From Terriglobales bacterium (GTDB taxonomy: Bacteria > Acidobacteriota > Terriglobia > Terriglobales > Acidobacteriaceae): a stretch of DNA of 64,000 nt. Both the position numbers and the translations under genes were made by a program. The stretch lies in NCBI GenBank assembly GCA_963823845.1, contig CAWGND010000008.1, positions 729,124-793,123 on the forward strand. The letters are read 5' to 3'. Positions 1-8,250 of the stretch are shown piece by piece (position 1 is the stretch's first letter; every line of letters begins with the position of its first letter). The notes under the pieces are model-generated. The model worked only from the letters and a program-made list of their open reading frames with translations, was not told the origin of the DNA and made no database searches.

Positions 1-520
1 TCTACCCAGTCTCTGACCTTCGAAAAACATCGGCTTGCATGACCGATCCGAAAGTAGTTCACCCAGCCCCGGAGGATGGGATTGATTATCTCTATCACCG
101 CCTCCACTGGCTGGCTGATGTGCTGCCGGAAGACGTCTCTGAGCTTGGCAAAGAGCGCCGTTTGCTTCTTCATCTTTGGCACAAATTGCGGTCGCCACTT
201 CCTGTTACGGCCCAGAACGAGGCGATATTCAAAACCCAGGAACGCAAAGCTTTCGCCTTTTGTCAGGTCAATTGTCCGACTCTTTTCTTCGTTGATCTCC
301 ACTCGTAGCTTCGCCAGTTCTTGTCGCAGTCGTTTGTTTACCGCCCTTTTCAACCAGTCATTCCGCGGATGGGAGTCGATTAAGATCACCATGTCATCCG
401 CAAATCGCGCGTATTGCGCATGGTTGTATCTTCCGCGCCTCGTGGTGGCTATCGCCTTCTCCAGCATTTTGTCTACCTCAGTGAGATAGATGTTGCTGAG
501 CAAAGGTGAGAGCACTCCCC
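1..520 (-). pseudogene. Outer intron RT/maturase, C-terminal fragment (RT5-7 and X/maturase domain). It runs off the window.
   Basis: My own minus-strand translation reads GVLSPLLSNIYLTEVDKMLEKA...YARFADDMVILIDS...FLGFEYRL...INPILRGWVNYFRIGHA. It contains the YADD-type catalytic motif and the maturase RGWxNYF motif. No start codon is present, and it continues past position 1. Confidence 0.85.
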
Positions 521-2157
521 TTACGCAAAAGGTAATCTGGCCCGTCCGTCTGGTTCGGCGATGGGCAGCCGCCTTGTGGGAGACTCTGAGGTATCGAAAT
601 GCTATGGCGTATGGTGATCGTGTCGTCCCCAATCAAGACGTCTTTCACAACTAGCCGCACGATCCTCTGTCGTTCTGTAATACTCAGGGTGTCAGCAGCG
701 CCGCGCAGGCGGTCGAGGAACGCAATGAGGGTTTCCGCCAGGCGTAGGAAAACCGCTCGTTCATTAGCTTGATCGGCGATTGCCTGCAACTCGGCACGGA
801 GCGCCTGATCACGCTGGCGTAGCGCAGGCATTCGCACCCGCATCTGCTCGATTGACATGAGTTCTTCCTGGTAGGCGGTGAGAAGTCGTTCGATGCCCTT
901 GCCCACATGCACTAGTTCCCGTTGAAGGCTCTGTACGCGCTTTTGGGCTGGATCGGACGAACGTGCCGCTGACAGCCGACGGTCGAGTTCCATTTGTATG
1001 AGCGTGGGGTCTTCCAGAAGTCGGATTACCTCGCCCCAGACGATCTGGTCAAGCAGATCCTGTCGGACCAAGCGGCCGTTGTCACAAACAGGACCGCCCA
1101 GTTTTCGCCAGCCATCCGAACCAATGCATTTGTAATAGTGGATCTTGCGTGCGGTCGTTTGCGTCGATGTGCGCGCAAATGCATAGCCGCACTTTTGGCA
1201 GCTGACGAGGCCCTGCACGATACTTGGCTCGATGGTGCGACGGCGTGATCGTCTCTTGTTTTCCTGAAGGAGTTCCTGGGCACGGACGAAGCAGTCTTCG
1301 CTTACCAGTGCCGGCACCGGGATCTCGATCCACTCTTCGCGCGGGCGCTCGTGCCCGGCTGTCATGTTGGGCGTAATCACACCTCTCCGGCGCAGTGGAC
1401 GGATAACGCGTGTTCGTGAAGAAGCGCGTGTCTTGCCGAAACATGCGAAGCCACGATATGCAGAGTTGCGCAACACGGCCCAGACAGTCGAGCGTTCCCA
1501 CCGGGCACTTGCTTTCCGAGTTGGAATGCCATCGGCGTTGATCCGGCGGGTGATCTCACCGATGCTGATGCCCTCAACCGTGTACATCTCATAGATGGCC
1601 TGTACGACACGGGCCTCGGCCTCAACCACGGTGTACGAGGCAGGTGCCTCGTTGGTCTTGCGGATGTAGCAATAGCCATATGGGGCGCCGCTCATCACGC
1701 TCACCTCACCCGAGTGGGCCCGGTGTCGTTTGCCGCGACGCGATCGCTCCAGGATCTGCGCTCTCTCATACTCAGCTATCATCCCCTGAAACTGAATCAG
1801 CAACTGATCTTCCGCGCTGGCGCCCTGCGGTGCTTTAACAAAAAGCGTCTCGACTCCATTGCGGGCCAGTTCCTCGATCAGCAAAATCTGATATGCGTAC
1901 TTGCGGCTCAGCCGGTCAGGCGCATACACCAGCACCACCTGAATTTGGCCTTCGGCGGCTAGGTCCCTGACACGCTCAAGTCCTGGACGCTCCAGCAACG
2001 CTCCACTATAGCCGTCATCTTCGAAGACCCACTCCTTTGGCACCTCCAGATCGTGCGCTTGGGCGAATTCGACTAGCAATGCCGTCTGACTTGCTATCGT
2101 GTTCGCCTCGCGCTGCTGATCGGACGAGACCCGCGCGTAGATCGCTGCCATCCTCAT
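478..2157 (-). CDS. Large serine recombinase (resolvase N-terminal domain, recombinase domain, zinc ribbon and coiled coil)
   Basis: 559 aa. The N-terminus is MRMAAIYARVSSDQQ, with the catalytic Ser in YARVSS. Other motifs are GYSGALLERPGLERV, VLVYAPDRLSR, and a Cys cluster CQKCGYAF...YYKCIG...VCDN. A long helical C-terminus follows. The last 14 codons read through the terminal repeat into flanking intron DNA. Confidence 0.9.
   Translation of the reverse strand: MRMAAIYARVSSDQQREANTIASQTALLVEFAQAHDLEVPKEWVFEDDGYSGALLERPGLERVRDLAAEGQIQVVLVYAPDRLSRKYAYQILLIEELARNGVETLFVKAPQGASAEDQLLIQFQGMIAEYERAQILERSRRGKRHRAHSGEVSVMSGAPYGYCYIRKTNEAPASYTVVEAEARVVQAIYEMYTVEGISIGEITRRINADGIPTRKASARWERSTVWAVLRNSAYRGFACFGKTRASSRTRVIRPLRRRGVITPNMTAGHERPREEWIEIPVPALVSEDCFVRAQELLQENKRRSRRRTIEPSIVQGLVSCQKCGYAFARTSTQTTARKIHYYKCIGSDGWRKLGGPVCDNGRLVRQDLLDQIVWGEVIRLLEDPTLIQMELDRRLSAARSSDPAQKRVQSLQRELVHVGKGIERLLTAYQEELMSIEQMRVRMPALRQRDQALRAELQAIADQANERAVFLRLAETLIAFLDRLRGAADTLSITERQRIVRLVVKDVLIGDDTITIRHSISIPQSLPQGGCPSPNQTDGPDYLLRKGSALTFAQQHLSH
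521..536. repeat. Left terminal inverted repeat of the recombinase cassette
   Basis: TTACGCAAAAGGTAAT is a perfect reverse complement of 2717-2732. The outer 16 bp (505-520) match the partner flank at 12/16 positions. Confidence 0.9.
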
Positions 2158-2308
2158 GATCGGACTCCTTTACACTGCACCCGACGGGACGTTCCCGAAC
2201 AGGCACCAGAATGCCATAGGCCTGGGCGAGCTTCGAATCGTGCAGTCGATCAAACACATAGTCAATGTGAACTTGAAGCGGCCCGTGCGGTGTGCGCGGC
2301 TTAGCCAT
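2015..2308 (-). CDS. Small hypothetical ORF in the recombinase cassette (true length uncertain)
   Basis: Its start overlaps the stop of the upstream gene (ATGGCTAA), which suggests translational coupling. The last ~47 codons overlap the recombinase N-terminus in another frame. No family was recognised. Confidence 0.3.
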   Translation of the reverse strand: MAKPRTPHGPLQVHIDYVFDRLHDSKLAQAYGILVPVRERPVGCSVKESDHEDGSDLRAGLVRSAARGEHDSKSDGIASRIRPSARSGGAKGVGLRR

Positions 2309-2630
2309 CTCTTCTCTGAGTACCGAGAAACGTGGCCAACGCGCGAGTCACAATCGCTCCGATGGTCAGCCCACTGCTTCTCGCGTACGCTCGTAGAAGG
2401 CGCGCTGTTCTCGCGGGGAGCTTGAGCGTAATCGCCACAGTAGTCTCGGAGACTTCGACCGGCTGATCCAGATGGGACGCTTCCTCCAGGTACCGATACG
2501 CTTGACGTTCCGAGAGGCCGAACTTTCGCGATAAACGATGCATGGCCTCGGGCAACGCAATATCCCGCTGGAGCATGGAGTATGCGGTATTCAGTTGCCG
2601 AGCCTTGTCCGATTTGGTCGATCGGGACAT
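2301..2630 (-). CDS. Small DNA-binding protein (HTH-like N-terminus, ribbon-helix-helix-like C-terminus), first gene of the cassette
   Basis: 109 aa. LSRKFGLSERQAYRYLEEA looks like an HTH. VAITLKLPARTARLLRAYARSSGLTIGAIVTRAL looks like a CopG/RHH fold. This is a candidate regulator or directionality factor. Confidence 0.5.
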   Translation of the reverse strand: MSRSTKSDKARQLNTAYSMLQRDIALPEAMHRLSRKFGLSERQAYRYLEEASHLDQPVEVSETTVAITLKLPARTARLLRAYARSSGLTIGAIVTRALATFLGTQRRDG

Positions 2631-2716
2631 CTGCCATAAACGTATTACCTCTTAAGACGCAGATCAAGCACCGGGGCACTAGTTCGCCACCCCTTCAGTA
2701 CCCTCTCAAATGTGAA

Positions 2717-2732
2717 ATTACCTTTTGCGTAA
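2717..2732. repeat. Right terminal inverted repeat of the recombinase cassette
   Basis: ATTACCTTTTGCGTAA is a perfect reverse complement of 521-536. An internal partial copy, ATTACCTCTT, lies at 2644-2653. Confidence 0.9.
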
Positions 2733-2999
2733 GAGGAGCGATCACACCGCCTTGCGGAACTCCTTGCTTCCCTGTCGACTTTAGGATCTGGTTGAGTAGT
2801 CTCATCACCATCGGGTCCTGCACACGTCGAGCTACCTTCTCAAGCAGCAGATAATGCTGAACATTGTCGAAGTAGGCTCGCAGATCAAGATCAATGATGT
2901 GGGTCTTTCCCTCCATGATCGCTTTGTCCACTCGAAGCACCGCCTCCTGGGCTGTCTTCTTCGGCCGGTATCCGTAGGACCCCGATTCGAAATCAGCTT
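2733..2999 (-). pseudogene. Outer intron RT, middle fragment (RT2b-RT4)
   Basis: The minus-strand translation reads EADFESGSYGYRPKKTAQEAVLRVDKAIMEGKTHIIDLDLRAYFDNVQHYLLLEKVARRVQDPMVMRLL...GKQGVPQGGVIAPL. The listed ORF 2695-2940 is this fragment plus a read-through into the cassette repeat. Confidence 0.85.
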
Positions 3000-5049
3000 T
3001 CCGAGTAGAGGAGTCCCCGGTGTGCTTTAGGTGTTCTTTGGCTGTGTCCGCCGTTTCCAGCTTCGTGCCCGTTTAAGTTCACCATGGCTCACCGGATTCT
3101 CCCCCCTCACGGACCCCGCCGTGCAGATTTCCCGCAGCGGGTTCTTCAGGCGTGACTCCCCGCCCCGACCCAGGCGTGTGTGATCCGAGGTAACAACAGT
3201 GGATGCTGCCGCAGGATAGCGTTATATCTATCCCACGTCAGCGGCCGCCCGCGTGTTCGACGACCCAGCCACTCGCGCCAGATACGACATACGCGTCGAT
3301 AGAACTGCCAGATGCTGTAATAGTTCGTCGGGCGTCCATAGTACTGGTAGTGGCCGCGGAGTTTGGCGTTCAGGGCTTCCTGTTGCTGGTTCACTGGCGT
3401 GCGCCGATGTTGTTTACACCAGTCGGCTATTGCCTTCAGCCCTCTACGGAGCCGTTGGGCTAACGTCTTCACATGCACTGTGAATCCACCCTTCCGGCTA
3501 CGGGCGCAGAGGTGCTTGAATCCAAGGAAATCGAAGCTCTCGGGTTGTTTCCCCTGCTTCTTCGCATTCCTCGCTGCATGGCGCCCGAATTCAATCCGCC
3601 GCGTCTTCTCCGGGTGCAGGGTCAGACCGTACTTCTCGAATCGCTTCGGTAGGACCCTCATCACCTTTTCCGCGTCCGCCCTGTGCTGGAAACACAGGAT
3701 GGCATCATCAGCAAAACGGATCTCGTAAGCTTCCCCTTTCAGACGGGGCCGCACCACATCCTCGAACCACTCATCGAGTGCATGGTGCAGGTAGATGTTG
3801 GCCAGGAGCGGACTGATCGGCTGCCCCTGTCCTGTCCCCGTTTCGCTCACAAGCAGCTTGCCGTCTTCAATGACCCCGACCTTGATCCATTTCTGAATCA
3901 GACGGAGCACGCTGCCGTCACTTACGCGCTTCTCCACCATCTCGATGAGGATGCCCCTAACAATTTTGTCGAAGTATGAGCTGATGTCTATCTCCAGAAT
4001 CCATCCCGTGGGCCGGGTGCAGATCACCCGTCTCACTTCGTCCAGAGCCTGATGTTGACTGCGTCCGGGCCTAAACCCGTACGAGCAATCGAGAAAATCC
4101 TGCTCGTAGATGGCATTCATCAGATCAACCACCACTTTCTGCCCGATCTTGTCCTCAAGGCTGGGAATCGAGATTGGCCTCTGTTTCCCGTTCTCCTTGG
4201 GGATATAGACTCGGCGCAGCGGTTGTACCTGGTACTTGCCTGTCACGAGCCGCCGATGCAACTGGCGGACGTTCTCCTCGGCGTTGATCTCGTACTCCAG
4301 ATACGTGACCCCGTCGATCCCGGCGCTGGCATTCTTTCGTAGACTTCGAAATGCCTCATACAACTTCTCCACTGTAATCAGGTGAGCGATGGAGTAGAAC
4401 TGTCGCTTCGGATCTTCCTTGGCGAGTTCGGCTATTCTGTCGATGTCTGTGCACATAACGATTCGAGTTCTGAGTCTCGACTATGTCTCCTTTCAACAGA
4501 TTCGTACGCTTGCTCCCCCCTTCCCTCCAGTGGGTCCCGTGGCCGCTCCTTGCGGAAGCCCTGCGGTTCCCCACCTTCACCGGTACTATGGGGTTGTAAG
4601 ACTGCTCAACCATCCTTCCGTGCTTCCTTCGGTCTACCCTTGGTTGCACGTATCTCCCGACCCGATCCAAAGGGCGTTCCTCCTGGTGTGGGAGAGGATG
4701 GGGAGCTCTCTTGGGTTCCCGGCCAACCTCTTTGGAAACATGCCCCGGGCTAAAGACACCGCCGATCCCAGCACAACCTCGCAATAGCGGTTGCTGCTGA
4801 ATGCTGCCTTCCGCCTCTTCGAAAACGTCGGCATCGGAACTGTGAACCGATTTCGGTGTTGAACCCTCACGGCCTGCTTCCTCACTGTGTACGCTTCGCA
4901 CCCACCAGTCACCCAGTGAATGGCAACACTCGCTACTGACCTGTCTTGCTCGACTTTGATCAGACGGGATTTGCACCCGCTAGGCTGGATCAAGAGGTTT
5001 CACTGTCTTATTATCAGTTCCCCCTCCTCCGAGCTTTTCCCAACGCGAC
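3000..5049 (-). mobile_element. Inner group II intron (about 2.05 kb) nested in the outer intron RT ORF. Boundaries are approximate (+/- a few nt).
   Basis: The outer RT sequence ...LKLILEPIF ends at 5050 and resumes in phase as EADFESGSYGYRP at 2999. The interval holds about 590 nt of 5' non-coding RNA, an intact RT ORF (3146-4456) and about 146 nt of 3' non-coding RNA, which is the usual intron layout. Confidence 0.7.
3146..4456 (-). CDS. Group II intron reverse transcriptase/maturase (intact, no endonuclease domain evident)
   Basis: 436 aa. Motifs are SAGIDGVTY, RRVYIPKENGKQRPISIPSLEDKIGQ, SYGFRPGRSQHQAL, GTGQGQPISPLLANIYLH, IRFADDAILCF, FDFLGFKH and LRGHYQYYG (X domain). Confidence 0.93.
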   Translation of the reverse strand: MCTDIDRIAELAKEDPKRQFYSIAHLITVEKLYEAFRSLRKNASAGIDGVTYLEYEINAEENVRQLHRRLVTGKYQVQPLRRVYIPKENGKQRPISIPSLEDKIGQKVVVDLMNAIYEQDFLDCSYGFRPGRSQHQALDEVRRVICTRPTGWILEIDISSYFDKIVRGILIEMVEKRVSDGSVLRLIQKWIKVGVIEDGKLLVSETGTGQGQPISPLLANIYLHHALDEWFEDVVRPRLKGEAYEIRFADDAILCFQHRADAEKVMRVLPKRFEKYGLTLHPEKTRRIEFGRHAARNAKKQGKQPESFDFLGFKHLCARSRKGGFTVHVKTLAQRLRRGLKAIADWCKQHRRTPVNQQQEALNAKLRGHYQYYGRPTNYYSIWQFYRRVCRIWREWLGRRTRGRPLTWDRYNAILRQHPLLLPRITHAWVGAGSHA

Positions 5050-5433
5050 AAAGATAGGCTCCAAGATGAGCTTGAGCGCACCCTGGACCACACGATCACG
5101 AATTGCAGGAATCGAAAGAACGCGTACCTTACTTCCCCCGTCCTTCGGAATCTCCTTCTTTCGTACTCGCATGGGCTGATACGTTTTGTCGACCAGCTCA
5201 TTCTGTATCTGTTTCAGAAAACTCTCCCGTCCGCTTTCCTCGATGGACGCAAACGTAACTCCGTCAATTCCCGGAGCCCCGTCATTACTCTTCGCCATCA
5301 GGTAAGCTTCTTGGAGTGTTTCCGTTTTGCAGACATGAACGTATAGTCCCCAAAAGCGCCAAGCCGATTCAGCTTTCGCCTTGACGTATAGACTCCTTCG
5401 CAGGTCCTGCAAACTGATGGGCGTATTTGTCAT
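5050..5433 (-). pseudogene. Outer intron RT, N-terminal fragment (RT0-RT2a)
   Basis: MTNTPISLQDLRRSLYVKAK...NDGAPGIDGVTFASIEE...VRKKEIPKDGGSKVRVLSIPAIRDRVVQGALKLILEPIF. The listed ORF 5014-5493 adds 12 non-RT codons that read into the inner intron. Confidence 0.85.
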
Positions 5434-6143
5434 TCCACCCTTGCCTTCCTTTTTGTCAGAGTCATTACGAACAGCAGGGCTCCTTGGCTCCACGGCCGTT
5501 ACGCCGCTTCATCGCTACTCCAGGCCCGCCCGCCACCCTCTCGCCGTCCTTCCATTTCCCGGTGTCGCCGGTTATAGGTCGGACCTGCTCCAAAGATTTC
5601 GCTCTGGGACGAGGAGGGCTTCTCCAGTTGCTTAATATGTCCTTGTCATCGTGCTGTCGCTGACACCCCGCCAAAGTGGTTCGACGCTTCAGTCAGTTTG
5701 CGACGTACCATGCTGCCTTCATCCAGCTCCGAAGGATTCGGCCTTTGGGGCGACTATTTTTCGAGGCTACTTTGCGTTTACGATCATTACGGCCCGATGA
5801 CTTGCTCACCACCCTTAAGGTGGCTTTGTCGATAGACTTAAGAGATTCGGTTTCCCTTCTCTCCTCTATCCAAGCTACGAGGTTCCTGACTTTTTCCTCG
5901 ATGGGTTTACCTCCCACTGAACACATCAGCCTTTCTTTCTTCACTGGACATGCCGAAGCTCGATAGCCCGGCCCACCGGTACCTCTGGTCTACGCTTCAC
6001 GAGACACCTCACGATGTCACATGCAAGACTCGAGGCCAGGATGGATTCGCTACTTCCTTTCCTGTAGGGCTCTTGCATCCCCTACAACATGCCGGTTTAT
6101 CCCGGCGCACTCCGTATTGCCGGTAATACGTCCGCGACGCGAT

Positions 6144-7049
6144 CTAAGGGCCTTGATCGTTTCTCGACGAGCGCTCGATTTCCGCGTTGATCACTGCCCC
6201 GATAAGCAACGCTAGCCCGGTCGCATAGAGCCAGACCAAAAGAATCATCAATGCGCCCAATGACCCGTACGAGACGCTGTAATTATTAAAAAAATGCAGG
6301 TAGATACGGAATCCAAACGAAGCCGCCAGCCATATAAACCCACCAAATGCCGCTCCAGGCGTAAACCAATGCCAGCGACGGCGCTCTTTCAAGTCGGGAC
6401 CGTAGCGATAAATCAACGAACACGATAGGGCAACGAAGAAGATAGCAGTCGGCCACTGAATAGCCTTCCAGACGAGGACGACTAACGGATTCAATCGAAG
6501 TCCTGCCCCTAACCAACCCACAAAGTGGCTACCTGCAAGCACCATAAACAAGGCCGTAAGAAGCAGAATTGAGGCTACTAGACTCAATAAGAGTGCTATT
6601 GCGCGAGCTTTGAACCAGGAACGAGTCTCGCGGACATGAAACGCCGCATTCAGGAAGCCAATCATTGAACTTACGCAACTGGAGATACACCATAGGGCTG
6701 AAACTACGCCAAAAGTCAGTTTTCCTTGACTAGCGTGTGCCGCTATCTCGGTGGTTACTCCTCTCAAAAGTTGGAACGCAGTTGGTGGAAGAAACTCTGC
6801 GAAATAAGAAAGGAATTCGTTTTGAAGTTCGACACTGTGTGAGGCGAACAGGCCGAACAACGTCATCATCAAGAATATCAGCGGGAAAAGGGCGAATAAG
6901 AAATTGAAGGCGAGCTCGTCTGCCCGTCCAAAGACGTTATTTGCGTCGATTTCCTCGAAAACGGCTCGACCCAGTTGCCCAGGAGTCAGACCTCCGAGCT
7001 TCCATAAAGACCTGGCGGCGACGGAGGGCGGGCTTGTCTTTGCTTGCAC
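6144..7049 (-). CDS. YihY/virulence factor BrkB family membrane protein
   Basis: 301 aa, polytopic. ...ELAFNFLFALFPLIFL..., GALMILLVWLYATGLALLIGAVINAE is the typical YihY/BrkB C-terminal signature. Confidence 0.85.
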   Translation of the reverse strand: MQAKTSPPSVAARSLWKLGGLTPGQLGRAVFEEIDANNVFGRADELAFNFLFALFPLIFLMMTLFGLFASHSVELQNEFLSYFAEFLPPTAFQLLRGVTTEIAAHASQGKLTFGVVSALWCISSCVSSMIGFLNAAFHVRETRSWFKARAIALLLSLVASILLLTALFMVLAGSHFVGWLGAGLRLNPLVVLVWKAIQWPTAIFFVALSCSLIYRYGPDLKERRRWHWFTPGAAFGGFIWLAASFGFRIYLHFFNNYSVSYGSLGALMILLVWLYATGLALLIGAVINAEIERSSRNDQGP

Positions 7050-7221: not shown

Positions 7222-8250
7222 ATGTACTTCATCGGACTGGATGTACACAAGAAGACGATCAGCTATTGCGTGAAGGACGCGGCTGGCCGTGTGCACTAGG
7301 AAGGCAAGATCGGATCAAGCAGGCGCGAGCTGGATGCGTGGATCAGCACACTACCTCAGCCGCGAACGATTGCCATGGAAGCGACCTTCACAGGCTGGAT
7401 CTACGATCACCTGCTTCCGCATGCAGATCAGGTGAAGGTTGCGCACCGCTGATGCTGCGGGCGATCGCCGCGGCCAAGAAAGAAGAACGACAAGATCGAT
7501 GCCGGCAAGATCGCCGACTGCCTGCGATGCGACTTCCTGCCCGAGTGCCACATGGCTTCGACCGAGATCCGGAATCGGCGCCGCACGCTGCGCTACCGTA
7601 GTCTGGTGGTCAAGCAGATGGTGCAGATGAAGAACCGTGTCTCCGGCCTGTTGATGGAGACCGGGGTCAGCTACAACAAGCAGCGGCTGCACAAGGCCGG
7701 CTACTTCGCCGAATTACTCACGACCAACGAAGAGGTAAACGAGAGCATACGGCCGCTGCTGAAGCTGAGCAGGGAGATGATCTGCCGTTCGCAGAAGCTC
7801 GATTATGCGCTGGTCAGTTCGCTCGAGCGCGATCCGCTTCTGAAGGAACGGCTACGGCGGCTTCGGACCGTGCCCGGGGTGGGGCCGATCACGGCCCTGA
7901 CGTGGGCTCTGGAGATCGGAGACGTCACACGTTTCACTTCGATCAAGCAAGCGATCAGCTACTGCGGGCTATGCGGCGATGAGAAGAGCTCGGCCGACAA
8001 GGTGATGCGGATGCCGATTTCGAAGCAGCGCAACAAGCACATCCAGCGAGTGCTGATTGAAGCAGCCAAACTGGCGGTGCGGGAGTGCCATGAACTCGCC
8101 GTGATCCGTGCCAGAGAACTGGAAAGAGGCAACCCCAACCGAGCCACGCTGGCGGTAGCCAGGAAGATGGTCTGCTACATACTCGCGGTGGAGCGCAGGC
8201 ATCAGGACTTCGTGCCTGCCGAGAAGTTCAGCCGAACGCCGGCAGCGTAA
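7222..8250 (+). pseudogene. IS110-family (DEDD) transposase gene, inactivated
   Basis: The N-terminus MYFIGLDVHKKTISYCVKDAAGRVH is followed by an in-frame TAG at 7297-7299. Two frameshifts follow, near GCGCACCGCTGATG at about 7441-7454 and in the A-rich run at about 7477-7492. The C-terminal 232-aa ORF (7552-8250) carries the Transposase_20-type region (LRTVPGVGPITALTWALEIGDVTRFTS...YCGLCGDEKSSADK). Confidence 0.88.

What the first reader, a model, noticed from the sequence alone, without database searches (positions are those of the whole stretch)
1..6110. Three-deep nesting: an intron inside an intron, plus a recombinase cassette, all within one RT gene
Reading the minus strand from 6110:
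- The intron starts with GTGCG, followed by about 680 nt of non-coding RNA.
- The RT N-terminus (MTNTPISLQDL...GAPGIDGVTF...VVQGALKLILEPIF) stops being RT-like at 5050.
- The same RT resumes in phase at 2999 (EADFESGSYGYRP...IIDLDLRAYFDNVQH...GVPQGGVIAPL) and breaks again at 2733.
- It resumes at 520 (GVLSPLLSNIYL...YARFADDMVILI...INPILRGWVNYFRIGH) and leaves the window.
- Gap 1 holds a complete second intron with an intact 436-aa RT. That RT looks like a different lineage (IRFADDAILCF; X-domain LRGHYQYYG versus LRGWVNYF).
- Gap 2 holds the serine-recombinase cassette.

Twintrons are known, but a twintron additionally hit by a DNA recombinase element is an unusual record of successive invasions. 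It implies the outer intron is now immobile unless the inner intron splices. Even then the cassette keeps the RT broken.
Basis: partly seen in the sequence, partly recalled or inferred. Interest (0 to 1): 0.65.

Follow-up and report, generated by a model that had tools for sequence, protein, structure and literature searches.

The report
Four nested selfish elements, each targeted
The stretch holds four mobile elements nested inside one another: three group II introns and a small serine-recombinase jumping gene that lands in one conserved spot of intron reverse-transcriptase genes, and each one specialises in inserting into other mobile elements.

Summary
One reverse-transcriptase (RT) gene on the minus strand is split into 5433-5049, 2999-2741 and 512-1. 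Joined, the pieces match an intact 438-aa RT at 374/384 residues with no gaps.

Gap 1 (5048-3000) is a complete 2,049-nt group II intron, here called C. Gap 2 (2739-510) is a 2,230-nt element carrying a large serine recombinase (LSR).

The reading needs three corrections:
- **Four layers, not three.** The GTGCG at 6110 starts a different intron (A, 6110-5953). The RT-owning intron (B) starts at 5952 inside A.
- **The insertions are targeted, not accidental.**
  - B sits at one fixed place in domain 1 of A-type introns in at least five hosts.
  - C homes into the LEPIF|E codons of intron RTs, and its EBS1 loop covaries with its targets.
  - The LSR element belongs to a large family with more than 8,000 close homologues. 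67 of 76 copies examined have an RT gene on at least one flank, broken at motif PQGGxxSPLL, in either orientation.
- **The RT is not permanently broken.** Soil metagenome contigs carry this same B copy, with C, but precisely lacking the LSR element.

Nested introns are known. I found no description of RT-targeting LSR elements in the papers I could search.

The parts
6144..7049 (-). Host gene of the YihY/BrkB family. The nest lies downstream of its stop codon.
   Evidence: Pfam Virul_fac_BrkB, E 1.3e-57.
6113..6130 (-). Hairpin CGTATT-ACCGGC-AATACG, ending 2 nt before the start of intron A.
   Evidence: Read directly from the sequence. Other A-type introns also follow small hairpins.
5953..6110 (-). 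Intron A, the outermost layer. Only its 5' 158 nt are present (GTGCGCCGGGATAAACC...). It is cut in domain 1 by intron B, and its remainder should lie beyond the window start.
   Evidence: Truncated RF02005 match covering model positions 1 to about 120, 82.8 bits, E 4e-24. It is 82-89% identical to the 5' ends of introns in L027, L024, L029, L043, L049 and L037, and that homology stops at GAGCTTCG|.
1..5952 (-). Intron B, which owns the split RT. It starts with the non-canonical GCATGTCCAG and continues past the window start by an estimated 340 nt (inferred from relatives). Uninterrupted relatives are 2,009-2,012 nt long and end in ...GACCCTAC.
   Evidence: L168 and L169 are 96% identical in DNA and carry neither insert. 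B has the same 5' and 3' flanks inside D1D4-6-type host introns in at least 5 different hosts.
5782..5919 (-). Ribozyme domains D1-D4 of intron B.
   Evidence: RF02003 group-II-D1D4-4, 112 bits, E 4e-25.
5049..5433 (-). B RT piece 1 (MTNTP...LILEPIF + G).
3000..5048 (-). It is 2,049 nt with non-canonical ends UCGCG...CUCGGA. Joining its exons gives ATCTTTG|AAGCTGAT, which reads IFEAD.
   Evidence: The empty site in L168 is identical: GAGCCTATCTTTG|AAGCTGATTTCG. Family members are 2,020-2,050 nt with the same ends. Copies 100% identical sit in other hosts, L162 and L163.
4747..4973 (-). Ribozyme domains D1-D4 of intron C.
   Evidence: RF02005, 116 bits, E 4e-33.
4816..4821 (-). EBS1 of intron C (CGAAGA), which pairs with the last six exon bases TCTTTG.
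   Evidence: The loop changes in step with the exon across more than 10 different targets, for example TCATGA/TCATGA, AGGCTA/TAGCCT and ATTCTG/CAGAAT.
3146..4456 (-). Intact 436-aa RT/maturase of intron C. It contains an unoccupied copy of the LSR target (GQPISPLL, about 3805-3835).
   Evidence: TIGR04416 at 340 bits against a cut-off of 300. The homologous intron in L006 carries an LSR element at this motif.
3111..3144 (-). D5-like hairpin of intron C. It is 34 nt, with 12 base pairs and an AC bulge on the 3' strand, and has AAC where AGC is usual.
   Evidence: Fold. Three pairs show changes on both sides and pairing is kept in at least 18 of 19 distinct sequences at every pair. RF00029 does not detect it.
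3001..3110 (-). D6-like long hairpin of intron C. It has a bulged A at 3006 and an insertion of about 75 nt at its tip.
   Evidence: Fold with z-score -3.3. Short variants L135 and L141 lack the insertion.
2741..2999 (-). B RT piece 2 (AA-GCT... EADFESGSYGYRP...GVPQGGV).
   Evidence: Pfam RVT_1 profile positions 37-127.
510..2739 (-). LSR mobile element, 2,230 nt counting one copy of the 2-nt overlap. It is inserted in the codons for PQGGV|ISPLL.
   Evidence: Soil contigs in runs X1, X4, X5 and X6 join 509 to 2740 exactly, skipping 2,230 nt with a 2-nt overlap (GA on the + strand).
2717..2740 (-). Left terminal arm, CGCTCCTCTTACGCAAAAGGTAAT. It differs at 2 bases from the family consensus CACTCCCC....
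   Evidence: The same arm variant is attached to other flanks in soil contigs.
513..536 (-). Right terminal arm, ATTACCTTTTGCGTAAGGGGAGTG.
2301..2630 (-). 109-aa ORF of the element. It may be a helix-turn-helix / Arc-like DNA-binding protein, but the hits are weak.
   Evidence: Gene calls of the same size and position in L001 and L002. PHROG Arc-like repressor E 0.002 and Pfam ANTAR E 3e-4, both below cut-off.
478..2157 (-). Large serine recombinase, 559 aa. The frame runs 35 nt past the element's end into intron B.
   Evidence: Pfam Resolvase, Recombinase and Zn_ribbon_recom. With the ends joined, the frame continues into a conserved 31-codon tail.
1..512 (-). B RT piece 3 (ISPLLSNIYL...YARFADD...LRGWVNYF...). 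It leaves the window 54 codons before the end of the RT.
   Evidence: Pfam RVT_1 positions 124-204 plus GIIM.

Best explanation
The region is a four-layer nest of selfish elements, all on the minus strand, built by target-specific insertion.

1. **Intron A** is a group II intron of the D1D4-6 RNA type. It inserted just after a small hairpin downstream of a yihY-like gene.
2. **Intron B** has D1D4-4 type RNA, and among solved structures its RT is closest to the class C enzyme GsI-IIC RT. It retrohomed into its family's fixed site in the DNA for domain 1 of A-type introns (...ATCGAGCTNCG|AAAA...).
3. **Intron C** is a D1D4-6 type intron with odd ends (UCGCG...GGA). It retrohomed into the LEPIF|E codons of B's RT gene, guided by EBS1 CGAAGA pairing with the exon bases TCTT(C/T)G.
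4. **The LSR element** came last. It is 2.2 kb and carries only a large serine recombinase and a 109-aa ORF. It integrated by conservative site-specific recombination, with no target duplication, into the codons for RT motif 4 (PQGGV|ISPLL).

**How the LSR element targets RT genes (inferred).** Its joined ends form a near-perfect palindrome, ...AAGGGGAGTG-NN-CACTCCCCTT.... This resembles the partly palindromic GGNGTGATC(T/A)CNCC found in almost every group II RT gene. That resemblance would explain two things:
- the family hits RT genes of many intron lineages;
- it inserts in both orientations.

**Shown**
- The anatomy and the exact boundaries.
- The empty sites for C and for the LSR element.
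- The family-wide target preferences.
- The EBS1-IBS1 covariation in the C family.
- The presence/absence polymorphism of the LSR element.

**Inferred**
- The order A > B > C > LSR.
- A circular intermediate of the LSR element.
- A full-length recombinase made only from that circle.
- That B and C can still splice.
For: **One RT, restored by joining the pieces**
- 374/384 identical with 0 gaps to the intact RT P0122.
- A single ungapped-at-junction alignment to 6ar1_A.

**A and B are separate introns**
- A truncated RF02005 match at 6073 to about 5953.
- Homology with six A-type introns ends at GAGCTTCG|.
- B relatives always have the 5' flank ...ATCGAGCT(N)CG| and the 3' flank |AAAA..GCCGaCG..GGAAGG in at least 5 different hosts.

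**Intron C**
- L168, 96% identical to B, has the empty site ATCTTTG|AAGCTGAT.
- Its nearest relatives sit at the same LEPIF|E site in other RT genes.
- EBS1 covaries with IBS1.
- The D5-like hairpin shows compensatory changes.
- Copies 100% identical occur in other hosts.

**The LSR element**
- The protein search scored 8,000 candidates and 7,999 matched; the 120 listed are 86-98% identical.
- Of 76 copies, 59 have RT homology on both flanks, ending and starting at RT residues 211-215. Another 8 have it on one flank.
- 32 copies are antisense to the RT and 23 are sense.
- Soil contigs carry this B copy, with 0 mismatches over 509 + 289 nt and still linked to C's 3' end, precisely lacking the element with a 2-nt overlap.
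- With the ends joined, the recombinase frame continues into a conserved 31-codon tail. The stop falls in the same place (30-31 codons) in 69 of 74 copies. Third-codon-position variability is 1.11 bits against 0.59 and 0.46 at positions 1 and 2.
Against: - 'B nested in A' therefore rests on the 5' junction and on relatives such as L169, where the host intron resumes after B.
- C and B have non-canonical 5' ends, and RF00029 does not detect C's D5/D6.
- No spliced-exon joint was seen in metatranscriptome contigs.
- The window's occupied left junction (attL) is not present in Logan contigs of 7 soil runs. The occupied right junction appears only as one 55-nt contig.
- Across the family, the two bases at the dyad centre differ between the two junctions in 43 of 74 copies, and no single 2-nt register fits all copies. 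Textbook serine recombination does not predict this.
Confidence: 0.82

Rival explanations
1. There is one outer intron that starts at 6110 and has a 680-nt leader, and it was hit by two unrelated chance insertions, giving three layers.
For: GTGCG at 6110 is a canonical intron start. No ORF lies between 6110 and 5433.
Against: - Two different ribozyme families occupy 6110-5433: RF02005 (truncated) and then RF02003.
- Intact relatives of the RT-owning intron start at GCATGTCCAG, which corresponds to window 5952.
- Both inserts sit at their families' usual targets.
Confidence: 0.04
2. The recombinase segment is an invertible DNA switch, in which an invertase flips the DNA between inverted repeats. 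On this view it is not an inserted mobile element.
For: - The segment is bounded by inverted repeats.
- A PHROG 'DNA invertase' family matches the N-terminal part of the protein.
- Both orientations relative to the RT occur in the family.
- A 57-nt soil contig joins the window-type left arm, inverted, to B3-like sequence.
Against: - A precise empty site exists for this very locus.
- The element occurs in many unrelated RT genes and in several phyla.
- It carries no gene or promoter that a flip would obviously regulate.
- In-place inversion may still happen as a side reaction of a palindromic site. That would add to mobility, not replace it.
Confidence: 0.05
3. The LSR element's placement inside this B copy is an assembly chimera, created because B, C and the LSR element are all multi-copy repeats.
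For: Public soil runs show only the empty form at the attL side of this B copy. The LSR left arm is attached to other flanks there.
Against: - The two flanks in the window are the exact, collinear halves of one RT codon string.
- A 55-nt contig in X4 spans the attR junction at 486-540.
- The same arrangement, a B-type host carrying C with the LSR left end 246 nt downstream, occurs in L101 and L102.
- The public runs hold at most 94% of the window's words, so they may not be the source sample.
Confidence: 0.08

Closest known systems
Nested group II introns of Methanosarcina acetivorans, which home into other group II introns. Described in the review PMC4424553, which cites the original study as its reference 123.
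   Same: - Several introns are nested, up to five in Methanosarcina.
[quoted passage not shown]
- They lie outside housekeeping genes.
- The nest gives the introns a permanent homing site.
   Different: - Here two intron families parasitise each other. B targets the ribozyme DNA of D1D4-6-type introns, and C, itself of D1D4-6 type, targets the RT codons LEPIF|E of B-type introns.
- The hosts are Acidobacteriota-type soil bacteria.
- B and C have non-canonical 5' ends, GCAUG and UCGCG.
- A DNA recombinase element is part of the nest.
The large-serine-recombinase transposons Tn4451/Tn4453 (TnpX) and Tn5397 (TndX) of clostridia.
   Same: - A large serine recombinase appears to be the only enzyme for movement.
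- There is no target duplication.
- TnpX and TndX both integrate and excise without accessory factors (PMC2475636).
- The 2-nt overlap at this locus is GA. From my own knowledge, GA is also the crossover dinucleotide of TnpX and TndX.
   Different: - This element is 2.2 kb with no cargo, while Tn4451 carries catP and mobilisation genes.
- Its ends form a long palindrome.
- Its target is one conserved coding motif of another mobile element.
- It inserts in both orientations.
- Its recombinase frame is completed across the joined ends.
- Pfam, NCBIfam and PHROGs matched only generic large-serine-recombinase domains and families.
Phage-type serine integrases (phiC31, Bxb1) and gene-interrupting elements excised by large serine recombinases (skin/SpoIVCA, the fdxN element/XisF).
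   Same: - The domain architecture is the same: Resolvase, Recombinase and zinc ribbon.
- The sites are att-like with dyad symmetry.
- The element interrupts a gene, which precise excision restores.
- NCBIfam XisF and CcrB models match, but below their cut-offs.
   Different: - There is no phage or developmental programme.
- The element is multi-copy within genomes.
- The central bases often differ between the two junctions, which phiC31-type enzymes do not tolerate (PMC2475636).
- The target is itself a selfish element.
IS607-family insertion sequences, which use a small serine recombinase as transposase.
   Same: A minimal transposable element moved by a serine recombinase.
   Different: IS607 transposases are about 200 aa with an N-terminal MerR-like domain. 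The NCBIfam IS607 model scores only 35.6 bits against a cut-off of 110.

Membership tests
Group II intron (intron C, 5048-3000) | Intron-encoded RT/maturase of the group II type | tested here: met
   TIGR04416 at 340 bits against a cut-off of 300; Pfam RVT_1.
Group II intron (intron C, 5048-3000) | Ribozyme domains D1-D4 upstream of the ORF | tested here: met
   RF02005 full-length match, 116 bits against a gathering score of 49.
Group II intron (intron C, 5048-3000) | EBS1-IBS1 pairing that ends at the 5' splice site | tested here: met
   The loop CGAAGA pairs with TCTT(C/T)G. Loop and exon covary across more than 10 targets.
Group II intron (intron C, 5048-3000) | Domain V (34-nt hairpin, 2-nt bulge, AGC triad) and domain VI with a bulged A | tested here: inconclusive
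   RF00029 gives no match, even at E up to 10. A 34-nt hairpin with an AC bulge and compensatory changes is present, but it has AAC instead of AGC. A long hairpin follows, with a bulged A 6 nt before the 3' end.
Group II intron (intron C, 5048-3000) | Boundary sequences 5'-GUGYG ... AY-3' | tested here: not met
   The ends are UCGCG...CUCGGA. They are fixed by the empty site in L168 and by the covariation of exon position -1 with EBS1. Altered termini are known in a minority of group II introns (PMC4424553).
Group II intron (intron C, 5048-3000) | Splicing in vivo | tested here: inconclusive
   Metatranscriptome contigs cover the C family, but none shows the exon-exon joint. Contigs cannot show absence.
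Group II intron (intron B, 5952 to beyond the window start) | RT with X/maturase domain, plus D1-D4 and D5-D6 RNA | tested here: met
   - RVT_1 and GIIM domains.
- 97% identity to the intact RT P0122.
- RF02003 at 112 bits.
- D5-D6 lies outside the window. In the 96%-identical L168 and L169, RF00029 scores 34.9 bits, below the gathering score of 40.
- The 3' end ...CUAC is canonical, while the 5' end GCAUG is not.
Twintron / nested introns | One intron lies inside another, and an uninterrupted form of the outer intron exists | tested here: met
   - C in B: the empty site is in L168, L169 and L021.
- B in A-type introns: the host resumes after B in L169 and L170-L185.
- For the window itself, A's 3' part is off-window.
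Large serine recombinase element | Resolvase catalytic domain with the serine nucleophile, plus Recombinase and zinc-ribbon domains | tested here: met
   Pfam PF00239, PF07508 and PF13408 all above cut-off. The N-terminus reads AAIYARVSSDQQ.
Large serine recombinase element | Conservative exchange at a 2-nt overlap, with no target duplication | tested here: met
   The empty allele joins 509 to 2740 with a 2-nt overlap. The empty sites in L163 and L168 have the same length as the joined flanks.
Large serine recombinase element | Identical crossover dinucleotide at both junctions | tested here: inconclusive
   It is met in the window at register +1 (TC on the minus strand). Across the family, the central pair is identical in only 31 of 74 copies, and no single register fits 26 of 73 copies.
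TnpX/TndX-type serine transposons | Excised circular intermediate; the recombinase alone both excises and inserts | not testable with these tools
   No circle-junction contig was seen. The only indirect support is the coding signature across the joined ends.
IS607 family | Small serine recombinase that passes the family model | tested here: not met
   NF033518 at 35.6 bits against a cut-off of 110. The protein is 559 aa.

The most novel reading that the evidence does not exclude
The LSR elements may be true hyperparasites of group II introns with an unusual recombination chemistry.

- They would tolerate, or exploit, non-identical crossover bases.
- They would set the direction of recombination by their own topology. 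The full-length recombinase, with its conserved 31-aa tail, would be made only from the excised circle, while integrated copies make a tail-less enzyme.
- Because they sit in domain 4 of an intron that can still fold, they could also be carried to new sites and hosts as cargo. This would happen when the host intron retrohomes using RT supplied in trans.
Probability: 0.15. Interest if true: 0.85.

Novelty: new variant of a known kind. Interest (0 to 1): 0.66.

Why it matters
- **A food chain of selfish elements.** Mobile elements here live on each other rather than on host genes.
  - Two intron families use each other as homing sites.
  - A DNA transposon uses the most conserved RT motif as a landing pad that is harmless to the host and present in many phyla.
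- **Why the LSR family is so abundant.** That landing pad would explain its abundance in soil Acidobacteriota and its presence in Proteobacteria bins.
- **Consequence for intron surveys.** Many 'fragmented RT' annotations in such genomes may be occupied sites rather than decay.
- **Possible tools.** A compact large serine recombinase that is naturally multi-copy and inserts in either orientation, with a 30-40-bp palindromic site, is worth testing as an integration tool. The retargetable C intron with non-canonical ends is also worth testing.
- **Intron biology.** Functional-looking group II introns that begin UCGCG or GCAUG, and whose domain V the Rfam model misses, widen the known sequence space.

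Tried and rejected

I could not read beyond the window start or count copies in the window's own genome.
- An exact look-up of the LSR protein found nothing on record.

**RNA and splicing searches that came back negative**
- RF00029 (domains V/VI) gave no match in three places:
  - at C's 3' end;
  - in short relatives of C;
  - at gathering level in L021.
- I therefore tested a D5-like hairpin by covariation instead.
- Metatranscriptome contigs gave no spliced joint.

**Models of the LSR junction**
- I first took the repeated GGVIAPL / RGVLSPL as a target duplication. I rejected this because the empty sites show no duplication. The apparent repeat is the element's arms mimicking the target.
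- I tested a single crossover register for the whole LSR family (-1, 0 or +1). None fits all copies.
- Simple decay cannot explain the central mismatches, which run at 0.35 per base against 0.047 in the arms.

**Other readings dropped**
- I considered B to be a class C intron that inserts after terminators. I dropped this because B's flanks are one fixed site in other introns.
- I looked for the window's occupied LSR junctions in 7 soil runs. Only the empty form and one 55-nt attR contig were found.
- Literature searches for serine recombinases targeting group II introns found nothing relevant.

Full report
**1. Checking the observation**

On the minus strand, Rfam finds two different group II ribozyme segments:
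- RF02003 (D1D4-4) at 5919-5782.
- RF02005 (D1D4-6) at 4973-4747.

Pfam gives the protein content:
- The ORF at 2157-478 has Resolvase, Recombinase and Zn_ribbon_recom domains, so it is a large serine recombinase (LSR).
- The 436-aa ORF at 4456-3146 is an RVT_1 protein.
- The RT fragment at 3000-2734 covers RVT_1 profile positions 37-127.
- The RT fragment at 521-3 covers profile positions 124-204, followed by GIIM.

I joined the three fragments at the exact junctions found later. The joined protein behaves as one RT:
- It aligns as a single stretch to the GsI-IIC RT (6ar1_A residues 11-342, E 1e-50), with no gap at either junction.
- It is 374/384 identical, with no gaps, to an intact 438-aa RT from metagenomes, P0122.
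- The inner RT is only 30% identical to it and passes the NCBIfam group II RT/maturase model at 340 bits against a cut-off of 300.

**2. A fourth layer**

The first 158 nt after the GTGCG at 6110 do not belong to the RT-owning intron.
- They are 82-89% identical to the 5' ends of a different intron family in L027, L024, L029, L043, L049 and L037. That homology stops at GAGCTTCG| (about 5953).
- Scanned alone, 6073-5953 matches the first 120 or so positions of RF02005 and then breaks off (82.8 bits, E 4e-24).
- Intact relatives of the RT-owning intron (L168 and L169, 96% identical in DNA) start with GCATGTCCAG, which is window position 5952. They are 2,009 nt long and end in ...GACCCTAC.
- In at least five different hosts, this intron family (B) has the same flanks. 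These are ...ATCGAGCT(N)CG| on the 5' side and |AAAA..GCCGaCG..GGAAGG on the 3' side, which is one fixed position in domain 1 of D1D4-6-type introns.
- In L169 the host intron visibly resumes after B.

The window therefore holds intron A (6110-5953, 5' part only) containing intron B (5952 to beyond the window start). The rest of A should lie about 340 nt beyond the window start.

**3. The inner intron (C, 5048-3000)**

*Exact boundaries*
- L168 gives the empty site, GAGCCTATCTTTG|AAGCTGATTTCG.
- The window has the same bases with 2,049 nt between them.
- The intron therefore begins UCGCG and ends CUCGGA, and splicing would restore ...LEPIF-E-ADF....

*Eighty relatives from metagenomes*
- They share these ends and this length.
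- The closest ones (94-98% RT identity) sit at the same LEPIF|E site of other RT genes.
- More distant ones sit elsewhere.

*EBS1-IBS1 covariation*
- A loop in domain 1 (CGAAGA at 4821-4816) is complementary to the last six exon bases.
- It changes in step with the exon in more than ten different targets.
- This fixes the 5' splice site and shows the family is retargetable in the normal group II way.

*Domains V and VI*
- RF00029 does not find D5/D6.
- A 34-nt hairpin directly after the RT stop has the D5 layout: 12 pairs and an AC bulge on the 3' strand.
- Three of its pairs change on both sides, and pairing is kept in at least 18 of 19 distinct sequences at every pair.
- It is followed by a long D6-like hairpin with a bulged A six bases from the end.

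*Signs of recent activity*
- Copies 100% identical to C occur in other host introns, L162 and L163.
- Metatranscriptomes contain C-family RNA.
- No spliced joint was seen, so splicing remains inferred.

**4. The recombinase element (2739-510)**

*Abundance*
- The protein search scored 8,000 candidates and 7,999 matched. The 120 listed are 86-98% identical.
- Most are on short repeat-limited contigs, and protein lengths range from 551 to 931 aa.

*Structure*
- In 79 loci from species-representative genomes plus two others, the element is about 2.19-2.25 kb.
- The loci come mainly from Acidobacteriota, with some Proteobacteria bins.
- The terminal arms are conserved: CAC(T/G)CCCCTTACACAAAAGGTAAT ... 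ATTACCTTTTGTGTAAGGGG(A/C)GTG.

*Target preference, 76 copies examined*

| Flank pattern | Copies |
|---|---|
| RT on both flanks, element antisense to the RT | 32 |
| RT on both flanks, element sense to the RT | 23 |
| RT on both flanks, but the same RT half on each side, as after inversions between copies | 4 |
| RT on one flank only | 8 |
| No RT match on either flank (with the two RT queries used) | 7 |
| Flanks too short to score | 2 |

- In the 59 copies with RT on both flanks, the homology ends and restarts at RT residues 211-215. This is the PQGGxxSPLL motif.
- Several of the seven unmatched copies still show CCGCA(A/G)GG-like flanks.

*Insertion without duplication*
- The empty sites in L163 and L168 read ...CAAGGCGGTGTGATTTCACC....
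- The window's own flanks have the same length when joined, so there is no target duplication.

*An empty allele of this same B copy*
- Contigs from four soil metagenome runs join window 509 to 2740. They skip 2,230 nt with a 2-nt overlap (GA on the + strand).
- In X5 the joined contig has 0 mismatches over 509 + 289 nt and runs on into C's 3' end.
- The same empty form is seen in all seven runs examined.
- So C was already there when the LSR element arrived, or the element has left some genomes. Either way, the RT frame is exactly restorable to GVPQGGVISPLL.

*A caveat on the occupied allele*
- Logan contigs of these runs show the occupied junctions of the window only as one 55-nt contig at the attR side.
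- I give about 8% to an assembly error. Against it:
  - The flanks are collinear.
  - L101 and L102 show the same trio of elements.

**5. How the LSR element probably works**

*Target recognition (inferred)*
- The joined ends would form a palindrome, ...AAGGGGAGTG-NN-CACTCCCCTT....
- The target GGNGTGATC(T/A)CNCC is a weaker palindrome around GATC.
- A serine recombinase dimer could therefore bind either way round, and a symmetric core allows both orientations.
- In phiC31-type integrases, polarity depends on a non-palindromic central dinucleotide, and mismatched overhangs block joining (PMC2475636).

*An ORF completed across the joined ends*
- The recombinase ORF runs through the right arm. 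In the window it ends 35 nt into intron B.
- With the ends joined it continues into a 31-codon tail, HSPY(T/A)KGNFxFER..GWR..LDLRLKR.
- The stop falls in the same place (30-31 codons) in 69 of 74 copies.
- Variability at third codon positions (1.11 bits) is about double that at first and second positions (0.59 and 0.46).
- This coding signature suggests the full-length enzyme is made only from an excised circle. The consequence for direction of recombination is speculation.

*An unexplained feature*
- The two central bases differ between the left and right junction in 43 of 74 copies. That is 0.35 per base, against 0.047 in the arms.
- No single 2-nt register fits all copies.
- Possible causes:
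  - a crossover at GA/TC one base off centre, on either side;
  - mismatch-tolerant exchange followed by segregation of the two strands;
  - gene conversion among copies.

**6. Comparison with what is known**

- **Nested introns.** Nested group II introns formed by homing into other introns are described, with up to five layers in Methanosarcina acetivorans (review PMC4424553). The intron part of this finding is a new instance, and it differs in two ways:
  - The two intron families target each other.
  - Both have non-canonical termini.
- **LSR elements.** The element works like the TnpX/TndX serine transposons, which integrate and excise without accessory factors (PMC2475636). It differs in four ways:
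  - It is minimal.
  - Its ends are palindromic.
  - It inserts in either orientation.
  - It is aimed at a coding motif of another mobile element.
- **Literature.** Two searches found no description of such elements.
- **Earlier notes in this scan.** Four earlier notes report the same kind of element in other genomes. I treated them as leads and re-tested their two main claims here: the RT-motif target, and the ORF completed across the joined ends.

**7. Verdict**

- Every layer is a specialist parasite of other mobile elements.
- The last insertion is polymorphic in nature.

Noticed in passing
window 5048-3000; L082-L161: The C intron family has ends UCGCG...CUCGGA and a D5-like hairpin with AAC in place of AGC. 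Most members also have an insertion of about 75 nt in the tip of D6, which the short variants L135 and L141 lack. The Rfam model RF00029 misses all of them.
   Followed up: partly
window 5952; L168-L179; L021: The B intron family starts with GCAUG in the window and in all close relatives. A relative in L021 that is 75-80% identical starts with the canonical GUGUG.
   Followed up: partly
L001-L081 and window 510-513 / 2739-2742: The two bases at the centre of the LSR site differ between the left and right junction in 43 of 74 copies, and 25 of those 43 have AT on one side. No single crossover register fits all copies.
   Followed up: partly
L008, L020, L040, L054: Some LSR copies are flanked by two downstream RT halves or by two upstream RT halves. 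This looks like the result of inversions or exchanges between element copies in different introns.
   Followed up: no
window 5976-6110 (metatranscriptome runs X25-X28): The first 130 nt or so of A-type introns reach contig depths of 150-700 in soil, peat and wetland metatranscriptomes. That is far above the rest of the region. B's RT exons are almost absent.
   Followed up: no
run X2, contig laid at window 2713-2748: A 57-nt soil contig joins the window-type left arm, in inverted orientation, to TTTGCTCAGCAACATCTATCT (B's downstream RT half). The element therefore also occurs in the opposite orientation at this site in some B copy. That could come from in-place inversion or from a separate insertion.
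   Followed up: no
L059 2899-5132 and 6389-8622; L019: One locus (L059) has two LSR copies 3.5 kb apart in neighbouring RT genes. Another copy (L019) is 2,705 nt long and carries about 480 extra bases.
   Followed up: no
window 3805-3835: Intron C's own RT gene contains an unoccupied LSR target (GQPISPLL, with a GATC core). The homologous intron in L006 is occupied at this exact place.
   Followed up: partly
window 7222-8250: A fragmented transposase-like ORF lies upstream of the yihY-like gene. An earlier first-reader note calls it an IS110-family relic. I ran no search on it here.
   Followed up: no
window 2640-2716: Between the left arm and the 109-aa ORF lies a conserved stretch, CTTGAT-N17-TAATAC. 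It looks like a sigma-70 promoter and overlaps the last codons (LDLRLKR*) of the recombinase tail that is completed across the joined ends.
   Followed up: no
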